From Patescibacteria group bacterium (GTDB lineage: Bacteria; Patescibacteriota; Doudnabacteria; UBA920), in contig DAIMCS010000001.1 of NCBI GenBank assembly GCA_036726225.1, positions 135,776-186,884 on the forward strand: a stretch of 51,109 nucleotides of DNA, read 5' to 3'. The position numbers were made by a program, and so were the translations under genes. A model generated the notes under the pieces. That model made no database searches and was not told the DNA's origin. It saw only the letters and a program-made list of their open reading frames with translations. Shown here in pieces: positions 46,710-47,790 of the stretch; position 1 is the first letter of the stretch; each line of letters opens with the position of its first letter.

Positions 46710-46884
46710 AGAGGAAGAATAGCGGGCAAATATCCACAGTACCAAGGCGGCGGCGCTCGGTTTTCCCTTCTGTGCAACCGCAACAATAATTGGTACGGTG
46801 GAAAAACTCATTTGCCGGCTCAGAACTTAAACGGCAAATGCGTTTTACCTTAGCTGAAAAATGCTCGGGGGCTTTTCGGATTGC

Positions 46885-46920
46885 CGGGAGGGCACGGAGA
46901 TAAGGCATTGTGGTCGCAAT
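46885..46920. other. Internal att-like site in the island
   Basis: GTGGTCGCAAT arm matches the left-junction arm. The minus strand reads HNALSPCPPGNPKS, in register with comM HNILLSGPPGSGKT. Confidence 0.6.
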
Positions 46921-47181
46921 ACAACACTGGAAAACTTCGTCACATCATTTGAATTGAACGCAAATACTCCACAGATTGAGGAGTGGTGGCTCAAGCAAGG
47001 AAGGGGGCCGAAGGGCCGCTATGTCAGAGCCGAGACGGCATCGCGCTCGGCCAGAGATGGAAGCCGTTTCTGAGACGGGATTCTCACGGAATATTCGTAC
47101 AATCGCTGTCAACCTCCAGTGTTTGGGAGTTCCGGAATGATTTTCTATTGGGTCCAACTATCGTCTGCTCTGCTCACTCCG

Positions 47182-47790
47182 ATAATCGCTATTCGGGATG
47201 AAACTCTGAATCGGGTTGTTTGGGATGCTGTTGTCACTGCAATCCTGGATCCCGATCTGATAGCGACGCAGGTTGAAAAACTCCAACACGAACGGCAACA
47301 GGAGAAGCCTCCCGGGGAGACCGAACAGAAAGAAATCGATGCGGGACTTAAACAGCTACAGAATGAAGAGGCACGGTTGCTTGAAGCCTATCGGCTGGAA
47401 ATCATCTCGGCGGCTCAACTCAACCAGGAACTGGAGAAGCTGAATCCCCGCAAGACTCCGTTATTAGATCGCCAAGCCAAGTTGGCGGTCAATCTGGCGA
47501 GACCGCCTCTACCGGTTGTCCAACGCTCCATTCGAGAGTACTGCGAACTCGCCGCTGCCAACATTCGATCCCTGAATTTCGAGCAGCGGCAAGAATTTTT
47601 GAGAACTCTGATCAAAGCGATTGTTTTCGAGGGGAAATCTGTTCGGATTCGAGGGCTGATTCCCATCAGCTCCCGGCCTGACAAGCCGGCCGTACCAGAA
47701 TCGCCGAGCAGCTCCGGTCACGGACGGATTGAGACCACCGCAATAGTATATTGTGAGAACCGCTGGCTGCAATTTCCAAAGCCCTTTTAG
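47182..47790 (+). pseudogene. C-terminal fragment of a large serine recombinase (catalytic, recombinase and Zn-ribbon parts missing)
   Basis: IRDETLNRVVWDAV..ILDPD, coiled coil with LLEAYRLEIIS..QL and FEQRQEFLRTLIKAIVF. The frame crosses the right junction. Confidence 0.8.

What the first reader, a model, noticed from the sequence alone, without database searches (positions are those of the whole stretch)
46861..47790. Third att-like junction inside the island: tandem or nested elements and a circularly permuted integrase remnant
At 46910-46920 the arm GTGGTCGCAAT recurs, a 10/11 inverted match to the right-junction arm. It is followed by a second integrase-tail-like ORF (HCGRNTT…FEL…RGPKGRYV, to 47073) with the same GRN/FE/G.xG.(F/Y)V pattern as the left-end tail. 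Its left flank mimics comM (PPG and K in register). All three sites are in one reading frame (offsets 2262 and 843). This suggests an 843-bp mini-element plus a 2262-bp integrase-less cargo cassette accreted at one att site, resembling array-like cassette stacking in comM. The core here reads AA rather than AG, so it may be inactive.
Basis: partly seen in the sequence, partly recalled or inferred. Interest (0 to 1): 0.65.

Follow-up and report, generated by a model that had tools for sequence, protein, structure and literature searches.

The report
Fossil recombinase site inside comM island
The small repeat inside this comM-inserted island is a real but now dead attachment site of a serine recombinase, and it marks the seam between a recombinase-less anti-phage gene cassette and the stump of the mobile element that once carried the recombinase.

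Summary
GTGGTCGCAAT sits at 46910-46920, 2262 bp from the left junction and 843 bp from the right one, and all three sites share one reading phase.

The 10-mer alone is weak evidence (7 near-matches in the window against 3.4 expected). Comparison with 37 related recombinase loci is decisive:
- 46904-46920 is identical to the right arm of the family's attP palindrome.
- The next ~20 codons (GRNTTLENFVTSFEL) are the best match in the whole window to a profile of the family's C-terminal tails.
- The left flank (46843-46903) recurs, 77% identical over 84 nt, at the end of a CBASS cassette in an unrelated soil contig, and partly in a third locus.

In this family the attP palindrome lies inside the recombinase ORF (IATT…GRN). 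Integration therefore cuts off the protein's tail.

The island is composite. A recombinase-less defence cassette (44641-46901) is joined at this site to an element stump (46904-47745). The stump keeps only codons ~353-520 of the recombinase.

The order of events is inferred. The site is a fossil: no catalytic domain remains, and its core is AA where the outer junctions have AG. The closest known analogue is tandem SCC cassettes. I rate it a new variant of a known kind.

The parts
43784..44639 (-). comM (Mg-chelatase-like / YifB), C-terminal part, from ...LSGPPGSGKT onward
   Evidence: Pfam Mg_chelatase profile 22-206 plus Mg_chelatase_C. Joining it to 47747-48394 gives in-frame ...AASGSHNILLSGPPGSGKT.
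44616..44675 (+). Left junction L (attL). comM B arm 44616-39, core AG 44640-41, element arm P'L 44642-75 (TGGTCGCAAT at 44649-58, then TCGGGTAGGGAAA).
   Evidence: The P'L arm is about 83% identical to L032 3521-3550 and to the outer flank of the natural attP in L042.
44641..44913 (+). L tail: 91 open codons in phase with the recombinase ORF across the core (AFDGRNSGRES...CEFEI...DGKFV...)
   Evidence: R+L 17.7 bits. A profile of the post-GRN part alone gives E 0.012, the best hit in the window. The closest tails are P0034, L032-3530 and P0027.
44874..45203 (-). Cargo: beta-flower protein gene
   Evidence: Pfam Bflower, E 2.7e-10.
45181..46473 (-). Cargo: OLD/GajA-like ATPase-TOPRIM nuclease gene
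   Evidence: Pfam AAA_15 and OLD-like_TOPRIM. PADLOC GajA 2e-55, Old 1e-48.
46542..46811 (-). Cargo: 89-aa ORF of unknown function
   Evidence: No family hit. One 66%-identical homologue lies in another defence-gene neighbourhood, L041.
46843..46901 (+). T-left: variant left arm plus conserved flank (the cassette's right end). ATTGC is displaced 5 nt outward compared with the canonical P arm, and the middle part is comM-like (TGCCGGGAGGGC).
   Evidence: nhmmer: L032 6982-7043 E 1e-17, L009 16633-63 E 0.0045. blastn 77% over 84 nt, E 1e-11. 15/30 identity to the comM B arm in register. Not palindromic with T-right (fold z -1.2).
46902..46903 (+). T core dinucleotide AA, in register with AG at L and R
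   Evidence: L032's equivalent site has AG; the intact attP sites of L005 and L002 have AA.
46904..46920 (+). T-right: canonical P' arm GGCATTGTGGTCGCAAT
   Evidence: Identical to the attP arm of L020. 85-90% identical over 29-34 nt to L005 and L020.
46912..46976 (+). T tail: GRNTTLENFVTSFELNANTPQ, inside ORF 46861-47073 and in phase with the recombinase ORF across the core
   Evidence: Tail profile E 0.003, the best of 1993 ORFs. R+T scores 20.6 bits. The closest tail is P0002, the nearest homologue of the recombinase stump.
46977..47187 (+). Unassigned stretch that must contain the deletion joint. No recombinase similarity is detectable in any frame.
   Evidence: hmmsearch with filters off finds nothing significant. 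tblastn with 31 full-length homologues finds no N-terminal remains anywhere in the window.
47188..47745 (+). Large serine recombinase stump: coiled-coil / C-terminal region only (profile positions 353-520 of 543) plus a linker and the P arm. The ORF runs 47119-47790.
   Evidence: phrog_95 integrase, E 3e-13. 764 homologues. hmmsearch E 1e-49. No Pfam Resolvase, Recombinase or Zn_ribbon hit.
47728..47770 (+). Right junction R (attR). P arm ATTGAGACCACCGCAAT 47728-44, core AG 47745-46, comM B' arm 47747-70.
   Evidence: 83% identical over 35 nt to the attP of L029.
47747..48394 (-). comM, N-terminal part (...ALEIAASGSHNI)
   Evidence: Pfam ChlI plus Mg_chelatase profile 1-27.
46800..46849 (.). 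Strong hairpin between the start of the 89-aa ORF and T-left. Role unknown; listed because it abuts the site.
   Evidence: 18-nt arms, 89% complementary. DNA fold -13.5 kcal/mol, z -4.6. No Rfam family.

Best explanation
What is shown:
- In this family attP is a 36-bp palindrome (ATTGCGACCAC-N15-TGGTCGCAAT, central AG) that lies inside or just behind the 3' end of the LSR gene. It is translated as IATT-x5-GRN and is followed by a short tail ending in FE(L/I). Integration therefore separates the gene from its tail.
- In the window the gene end (RIETTAI, 47728-45) abuts comM at the right junction. Two tails lie upstream, one at the left junction (L) and one at T.
- T's right half is the canonical P' arm plus a tail.
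- T's left half is a variant arm. Its distal ATTGC is pushed out by 5 nt and its middle resembles comM. The same arm closes a CBASS cassette in an unrelated contig (L032).

What is inferred:
- The island is composite. An integrase-less defence cassette (44641-46901: P'L arm and tail, beta-flower, OLD/GajA-like nuclease, 89-aa ORF, variant arm) sits between the two halves of what was once the LSR element's own attP.
- Most likely history: the cassette entered the element's attP by site-specific recombination, producing P|P'L and x|P'. The composite then integrated into comM through P|P'L. A later deletion removed everything between the T tail and LSR codon ~353.
- T is now a fossil. No catalytic domain is present in the window, and its core (AA) differs from that of L and R (AG).
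For: 1. T-right is identical to the family attP arm, and the family arm is 14-fold enriched in LSR loci.
2. The tail profile ranks the T ORF first in the window, E 0.003. Both R+T and R+L restore the family C-terminus in frame; the integrated reading does not.
3. The IATT...GRN motif is found on both strands at the same place in many loci, so it is a DNA palindrome. The canonical site folds with z -5.35.
4. T-left is conserved in L032 (77% over 84 nt, E 1e-11) and in L009. The associated LSRs share only 32-38% protein identity with the window's stump and the cargo is unrelated: CBASS SMODS plus S-4TM in L032, OLD plus Bflower in the window.
5. L032 has the same order of parts: LSR, then P|P'L (3530), cassette on the minus strand, variant arm|P' (7049). 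Its P'L arm is about 83% identical to the window's.
6. The order 'LSR, palindrome, cargo, x|P' in direct orientation' recurs in 7 loci: L001, L009, L015, L020, L023, L030, L032. In L009 each extra site is followed by an orphan tail.
7. No LSR relic lies upstream of any x|P' site.
8. comM is a very common LSR target (PMC10083194). Homologue P0039 is an LSR fused in frame to comM at GPPGTGKT.
Against: - No relative was found integrated in comM with such an internal site.
- The 2262-bp unit itself was found only in three 100%-identical contigs of the same strain, so its independent mobility has not been seen.
- Recombination between a palindromic attP and a hybrid x|P' site is not a canonical LSR reaction. 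Canonical LSRs pair only attP with attB, or attL with attR when a directionality factor is present (PMC3783163).
- In L020 and L015 the palindrome and the x|P' site are only about 130 bp apart, with no cargo between them. In L023 the gap holds an IS21. The second site could therefore be a built-in feature rather than the trace of a cassette insertion.
- Which tail is the LSR's own is unresolved. P0002 (47% identical) has a T-like tail, whereas P0024/L042 (45% identical) has an L-like flank.
- Only three T-left modules are known.
Confidence: 0.55

Rival explanations
1. Classical tandem accretion in comM. A complete LSR element (the present T-to-R segment) integrated first. A second complete element with the same target then integrated into the first one's attL, so that T is P1|P'2. 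Two independent deletions later removed almost all of LSR1 and the first two-thirds of LSR2.
For: - There are three directly oriented sites, all in phase.
- In frame, T-left reads like the end of an LSR: LGGFSDCREGT compared with LAFLSCRIATT in P0047.
- It resembles the 3' end plus P arm of the L020-type genes.
- Tandem arrays of SCC elements made by Ccr LSRs are documented (PMC11470126).
Against: - No LSR similarity is detectable left of T.
- The same truncated left arm, with the same 5-nt displacement and a similar left boundary, occurs in L032 next to CBASS genes and again without an LSR. The LSR-less state therefore predates this island.
- Integration of attP into attL is not a canonical LSR reaction (PMC3783163).
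- The core of T (AA) differs from that of L and R (AG).
Confidence: 0.2
2. T is a built-in secondary binding site of a single element, such as an accessory or regulatory site, or a decoy attL. Every member of this LSR family would carry such a site downstream of attP. The cargo between the two sites arrived by unrelated means such as IS elements or illegitimate recombination.
For: - In L020 and L015 the palindrome and an x|P' site lie about 130 bp apart with nothing between them. In L023 the interval contains an IS21.
- Tails of several homologues hold 2-4 tandem palindromic units (L006, L008, L010, L012), so multiple LSR sites per element are normal in this family.
Against: - Both ends of the window's cassette are conserved with L032 while the cargo differs completely.
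- In L009 each extra site carries its own complete or partial tail ORF, as expected if whole tail-bearing units were inserted.
Confidence: 0.15
3. Chance. A 10-mer happens to recur inside a 3-kb island, and an open frame behind it happens to look like a tail.
For: The arm with up to 1 mismatch is only about twice as frequent in the window as in shuffles. BLASTP sees no similarity between the two tails.
Against: - The 17-mer is identical to foreign attP arms.
- blastn to L032 gives E 1e-11.
- The tail profile gives E 0.003 over the whole window.
- Both tails are in phase with the LSR ORF.
Confidence: 0.02

Closest known systems
SCC / SCCmec composite islands at rlmH (CcrAB, CcrC large serine recombinases), including recombinase-less tandem defence cassettes (PMC11470126)
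   Same: Both have several directly repeated att-type sites, segments without a recombinase next to one that has (or had) it, and anti-phage cargo. In SCC the recombinase of one cassette can move the others.
   Different: - The target here is the Walker-A codons of comM, not the 3' end of rlmH.
- The recombinase belongs to another LSR clade; the NCBIfam CcrC model gives only E 0.16.
- The att site is a 36-bp palindrome inside the recombinase ORF.
- The inner site is a hybrid with a displaced arm, not a simple repeat of the integration-site sequence.
- Mobility is untested here, and the recombinase is dead.
comM (Mg-chelatase/YifB)-targeting large serine recombinases (Durrant et al. 2022, PMC10083194; phage WO sr1WO, PMC9203015)
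   Same: An LSR element splits comM, and joining the flanks restores the gene. Magnesium chelatase/ATP-dependent protease homologues are reported as the target of 12.4% of predicted site-specific LSRs.
   Different: In the passages I read, those reports describe single elements with one attL and one attR. I did not see an internal third site, tail swapping or cassette arrays described there.
CIME-ICE accretion (cis-mobilisable elements next to ICESt1/ICESt3 in Streptococcus thermophilus).
   Same: An element that keeps its att sites but has lost its recombination genes lies in tandem with an element encoding the recombinase, and three att sites result.
   Different: Those systems use tyrosine recombinases and identical att cores. 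Here the enzyme is a serine recombinase and the inner site differs in both arm geometry and core.
Integrons (IntI, attI, attC cassettes)
   Same: In related loci a recombinase gene is followed by a primary site and then by cargo units, each closed by a secondary site in direct orientation. The cargo is often defence genes.
   Different: Integrons use a tyrosine recombinase and single-stranded folded attC sites. Neither is present here. T-type sites do not fold (z -1.2) and the enzyme is a serine recombinase.
SSV1-type (Fusellovirus) integrases, whose attP lies inside the int gene. Recalled from my own knowledge.
   Same: Integration partitions the recombinase gene, and excision restores it.
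   Different: That is a tyrosine recombinase of archaeal viruses, and the split removes a large part of the gene. Here only the last 15-90 codons are exchanged.
LI/A118 integrase att-site architecture (Rutherford et al. 2013, PMC3783163)
   Same: In that system attP- and attB-type half-sites differ by a 5-bp shift of a 9-bp distal motif. T-left differs from the canonical arm by a 5-nt displacement of ATTGC.
   Different: The direction of the shift and the identity of the motif bound by each domain are unknown for this family. The parallel is a lead, not a test.

Membership tests
LSR attachment site of this family (attP-type palindrome) | Right (P') arm matching the family consensus at the right distance from the centre | tested here: met
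   GGCATTGTGGTCGCAAT at 46904-20 is identical to L020 and 17/18 to L029, L030 and L005.
LSR attachment site of this family (attP-type palindrome) | Left (P) arm ATTGCGACC 27 nt upstream (start to start), making a 36-bp palindrome | tested here: not met
   The best left arm lies 32 nt upstream and has 2 further changes. Fold z is -1.2, against -5.35 for a canonical site. T is therefore a hybrid (x|P') site, not an intact attP.
LSR attachment site of this family (attP-type palindrome) | Followed in frame by the family tail (GRN ... FE[LI]) | tested here: met
   Tail profile E 0.003. R+T scores 20.6 bits.
LSR attachment site of this family (attP-type palindrome) | Central dinucleotide identical to that of its recombination partners | tested here: not met
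   AA at 46902-03, against AG at 44640-41 and 47745-46.
LSR attachment site of this family (attP-type palindrome) | Bound and recombined by the cognate recombinase | not testable with these tools
   This needs an in vitro or in vivo assay with a full-length relative.
Accreted composite island (SCC-type / CIME-type) | Three or more att-type sites in direct orientation that delimit segments | tested here: met
   L (44649), T (46911) and R (47728, inverted arm of the palindrome).
Accreted composite island (SCC-type / CIME-type) | At least one segment lacks a recombinase gene | tested here: met
   No LSR similarity in 44641-46901.
Accreted composite island (SCC-type / CIME-type) | The segments occur separately, or with other partners, elsewhere | tested here: inconclusive
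   The cassette's two ends recur around other cargo in L032. The 2262-bp and 843-bp units themselves were found only together, in identical contigs.
Accreted composite island (SCC-type / CIME-type) | Segments excise alone or together | not testable with these tools
Large serine recombinase (the protein at 47119-47790) | N-terminal resolvase catalytic domain with the active-site serine | tested here: not met
   No Pfam Resolvase hit. Profile alignment starts at position 353 of 543. Nothing elsewhere in the window.
Large serine recombinase (the protein at 47119-47790) | Recombinase domain and zinc ribbon | tested here: not met
   No PF07508 or PF13408 hit. Nothing significant in 46921-47187.
Large serine recombinase (the protein at 47119-47790) | Coiled-coil / C-terminal region | tested here: met
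   phrog_95 positions 420-562. hmmsearch E 1e-49. 135 homologues below 1e-10.
Integron | Tyrosine recombinase IntI and folded attC sites | tested here: not met
   The enzyme is a serine recombinase. T-type sites show no significant fold.

The most novel reading that the evidence does not exclude
This LSR family may run an integron-like cassette platform. The palindrome at the end of the recombinase gene would act as the docking site. Recombinase-less cassettes, mostly defence genes, would carry a hybrid site made of a comM-like or displaced arm plus a P' arm. They would insert there one after another. Each would bring a replacement C-terminal tail for the recombinase and push the previous tail downstream. 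The whole stack could then integrate into comM. The window's island would be a one-cassette stack, frozen by loss of the recombinase.
Probability: 0.2. Interest if true: 0.8.

Novelty: new variant of a known kind. Interest (0 to 1): 0.55.

Why it matters
comM is one of the most heavily used landing sites for serine-recombinase elements, but such islands are usually described as single units. Three things follow from this case.

1. In at least one uncharacterised LSR family the attachment palindrome is part of the recombinase's own reading frame. Integration and cassette entry therefore rewrite the enzyme's C-terminus, which could feed back on directionality or expression.

2. Recombinase-less defence cassettes with conserved ends travel with very different recombinases: 32-38% protein identity between the LSRs, against 77% DNA identity between the cassette ends. 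This points to trans-mobilisation of the kind shown experimentally for SCC cassettes, here in soil bacteria and reportedly a Patescibacteria genome.

3. The natural site variants found here could help in dissecting, and perhaps engineering, LSR site selectivity. They include a 5-nt displaced arm, AA versus AG cores, and tandem palindromes.

For the window itself the practical message is that the island is an immobile fossil.

Tried and rejected
- **Direct tail comparison.** BLASTP of the L tail against the T tail found no alignment. The two tails are related only through the family profile.
- **Pfam and NCBIfam** on the recombinase stump, the T ORF and the L ORF gave nothing useful. Only PHROGs recognised the stump.
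- **Remains of the zinc ribbon or recombinase domain in 46921-47187.** Resemblances seen by eye in two frames were not supported by hmmsearch with filters off, so I dropped them.
- **T tail as the recombinase's original tail and L tail as cassette-borne.** P0002 favours this, but the natural attP of L042 has an L-like outer flank. It is left open.
- **Searches for relatives.**
  - Genome contigs with the single protein found nothing.
  - With an alignment it found 3 Acidobacteria loci without comM.
  - Viral contigs gave nothing for the protein or for two att patterns.
  - Phage records gave nothing.
- **Homologues of the T ORF:** only itself.
- **Homologue of the 89-aa ORF (L041):** no att-type site nearby.
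- **Rfam:** no family. One sub-threshold miRNA hit falls on the hairpin.
- **Promoter scan:** only the promoter-like site upstream of the OLD gene.
- **A further near-copy,** TGCTCGCAATTC at 45328 inside the OLD gene, with its 16-nt inverted partner at 47573. I treated it as chance, since near-matches are common.
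Full report
**Setting.** On the minus strand, comM (Mg-chelatase-like, YifB family) is split. The N-terminal part ends at ...AASGSHNI near 47747. The C-terminal part resumes at LSGPPGSGKT near 44639. Joining the flanks at the shared AG (44640-41 and 47745-46) restores an in-frame gene. Between them lie 3.1 kb of higher G+C DNA containing:
- a beta-flower gene;
- an OLD/GajA-like nuclease gene;
- an 89-aa ORF;
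- at the right end, an ORF (47119-47790) that matches only the coiled-coil/C-terminal third of large serine recombinases (LSRs).

Evidence for the LSR assignment is phrog_95 at E 3e-13, 764 homologues, and profile positions 353-520 of 543. No catalytic, recombinase or zinc-ribbon domain is present there or anywhere else in the window.

**The observation.**
- the 11-mer at 46910-20;
- its 10/11 direct match to the left junction and its 10/11 inverted match to the right junction;
- the 70-codon ORF behind it;
- offsets of 2262 and 843, both divisible by three;
- AA at the position that is AG at the outer junctions.

Taken alone the arm is weak evidence. Near-matches occur 7 times in the window against 3.35 in shuffles, and BLASTP sees nothing between the two 'tails'.

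**What the relatives show.** Many full-length homologues of the stump end with a conserved motif, (R)IA(S/T)T-x5-(G/E)(R/H)N, followed after a variable linker by FE(L/I/F).
- The codons for I-A-T (ATT GCG ACC) are the reverse complement of those for G-R-N (GGT CGC AAT).
- In related loci the motif is detected on both strands at the same place.
- It is therefore the translation of a DNA palindrome.

I collected 37 loci (3 genomic, 34 metagenomic). From them the consensus is CGGATTGCGACCACAATAATA|GGGCATTGTGGTCGCAATCC.
- The arm starts are 27 nt apart and the central dinucleotide is AG, or AA in L005 and L002.
- GGTCGCAAT occurs 36 times in 385 kb against 2.6 expected.
- The site folds far better than shuffles (z -5.35).
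- It lies inside the last codons of the LSR gene or shortly after it.

In the window the palindrome is split. RIETTAI with the P arm lies at the right junction, and AFDGRN... with the P' arm lies at the left junction. Integration thus removes the enzyme's tail. This agrees with the sibling note e1-5103144.

**The third site.**
- 46904-20 (GGCATTGTGGTCGCAAT) is identical to the P' arm of L020 and 85-90% identical over 29-34 nt to the attP of L005 and L020.
- A tail profile built from 35 foreign homologues, with no window sequence, was searched against all 1993 six-frame ORFs of the window. The T ORF ranks first, E 0.003, aligned as EGTEIRHCGRNTTLENFVTSFELNANTP. The left-junction tail ranks second.
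- Joining the recombinase ORF at the core to either tail keeps the frame and restores the family C-terminus: R+T scores 20.6 bits and R+L 17.7 bits. The integrated reading into antisense comM scores 0.5 bits.

**The left half of T.** It is not a normal P arm.
- The ATTGC block lies 32 rather than 27 nt upstream, and the site no longer folds as a palindrome.
- Its middle part matches the comM arm of the true left junction in register. The match is 15/30, reached by 0.3% of window 30-mers.
- The minus strand reads HN-ALSPC-PPG-NP-KS, with the same spacing as comM's HN-ILLSG-PPG-SG-KT.

This is not random decay, because the same module recurs elsewhere:
- The soil contig L032 (6982-7065) is 77% identical over 84 nt, blastn E 1e-11.
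- L009 (16633-63) shares the 12-mer ATTGCCGGGAGG and the same 41-nt span.
- Other hybrid x|P' sites (L001, L030, L020, L015, L023) have left arms containing CCGCCGGG or LSPSPPG, again comM-like.

**Architecture.**
- In L032 the order is: LSR; a palindrome whose right arm (ATGGTCGCAATATGGGCAGGGAAA) matches the window's left-junction arm (ATGGTCGCAATTCGGGTAGGGAAA); a minus-strand CBASS pair (SMODS cyclase plus S-4TM effector); then the T-type module joined to a canonical P' arm.
- The window shows the same order, circularly permuted by integration of the first palindrome into comM.
- Cargo and recombinases differ completely between the two (L032's LSR is 32% identical to the window's stump), while both cassette ends are conserved.
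- Seven loci show LSR, palindrome, cargo, x|P' in direct orientation.
- In L009 two extra sites are each followed by an orphan tail ORF homologous to LSR C-termini, with Mrr-like and NPCBM genes between them.
- No LSR relic precedes any of these extra sites.

**Best reading (confidence 0.55).** T is the seam between an integrase-less defence cassette (44641-46901) and the stump of the LSR element (46904-47745).
- Most likely the cassette entered the element's attP, and the composite then integrated into comM.
- A later deletion removed the region between the T tail and LSR codon ~353.
- What is shown: the identity of the arms, the tails, the conserved ends and the loss of the catalytic domains.
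- What is inferred: the order of events and trans-mobilisation.

**Caveats.**
- Recombination between a palindrome and a hybrid site is not a canonical LSR reaction (PMC3783163).
- In L020 and L015 the two site types are 130 bp apart without cargo, and L023 has an IS21 in the gap. A built-in secondary site is therefore a live rival (0.15).
- Plain tandem integration in comM followed by two deletions remains possible (0.2).
- Which tail is the enzyme's own is unresolved.
- The island is 100% identical in three other metagenome contigs, so no polymorphism helps.

**Comparison with known systems.**
- comM is a known favourite LSR target: 12.4% of predicted site-specific LSRs (PMC10083194), and phage WO sr1WO (PMC9203015).
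- Tandem, recombinase-less defence cassettes moved by Ccr LSRs are documented for SCC elements (PMC11470126). That is the closest functional analogue.
- I did not find the following described in the literature I searched:
  - an attP palindrome inside the recombinase ORF, with exchangeable tails;
  - the 5-nt displaced, comM-like hybrid arm, reminiscent of the 5-bp shift that separates attP- and attB-type half-sites in LI integrase (PMC3783163);
  - the recurring 'cargo slot' behind the palindrome.
- I therefore rate this a new variant of a known kind.

**Limits.** I could not survey the rest of this genome, its relatives' comM loci, or reads for excision products.

Noticed in passing
L006 1500-1800; L008; L010 10560-10700; L012 440-640: The C-terminal tails of several homologous recombinases contain 2-4 tandem copies of the 39-nt palindromic unit. 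An example from L006 is IAARAGYQHDRN / IAARAGFHRAHN / IAGTEGYRIDRS / IAGTTEQRLAPN. These are att-like sites stacked head to tail inside the ORF.
   Followed up: partly
P0039 (representative protein): An 832-aa ORF in which a full LSR of this family runs in frame into the C-terminal part of comM (...[22 protein letters not shown]...). The target codons are the same as in the window, but the orientation relative to comM is opposite.
   Followed up: no
L009 8882-16950: A full LSR whose tail carries an HTH-like extension is followed by two orphan tail ORFs, at about 14290 and 16646. Mrr-like, unknown and NPCBM-domain genes lie between them. This is the clearest multi-site array found.
   Followed up: partly
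L032 3530-7173: A type I CBASS pair (SMODS cyclase plus S-4TM effector) and a 168-aa protein with a recombinase-type zinc ribbon lie between two att-type sites. A further P'L-type arm follows 124 nt after the second site, as if another cassette begins there.
   Followed up: partly
window 46800-46849: There is a strong hairpin (9 perfect pairs within an 18-nt stem, z -4.6) directly between the start codon of the 89-aa ORF and the T-left module. It matches no Rfam family.
   Followed up: partly
window 46618-46732 and L041 3774-3888: Part of the 89-aa ORF is 86% identical at DNA level to a 68-aa gene in an ENA contig. There it precedes caspase-like, DEAD-helicase and methyltransferase genes, and no att-type site lies nearby.
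   Followed up: partly
window 45325-45340 and 47573-47588: A 16-nt inverted repeat (94% complementary) links the inside of the OLD gene, which contains the near-arm TGCTCGCAATTC, with the recombinase stump. It is probably chance.
   Followed up: no
window 44747-48091 (L038-L040): Three JGI metagenome contigs from different samples are 100% identical to this part of the island, so the decayed composite is fixed in that population.
   Followed up: yes
L001 20451 and L030 3839: Hybrid x|P' sites in two unrelated loci share a left arm, GGCGGAGATGG..GAG.G.CGTCG. Its minus strand reads (L)SPSPPG, another comM Walker-A look-alike that does not continue into a comM gene.
   Followed up: no
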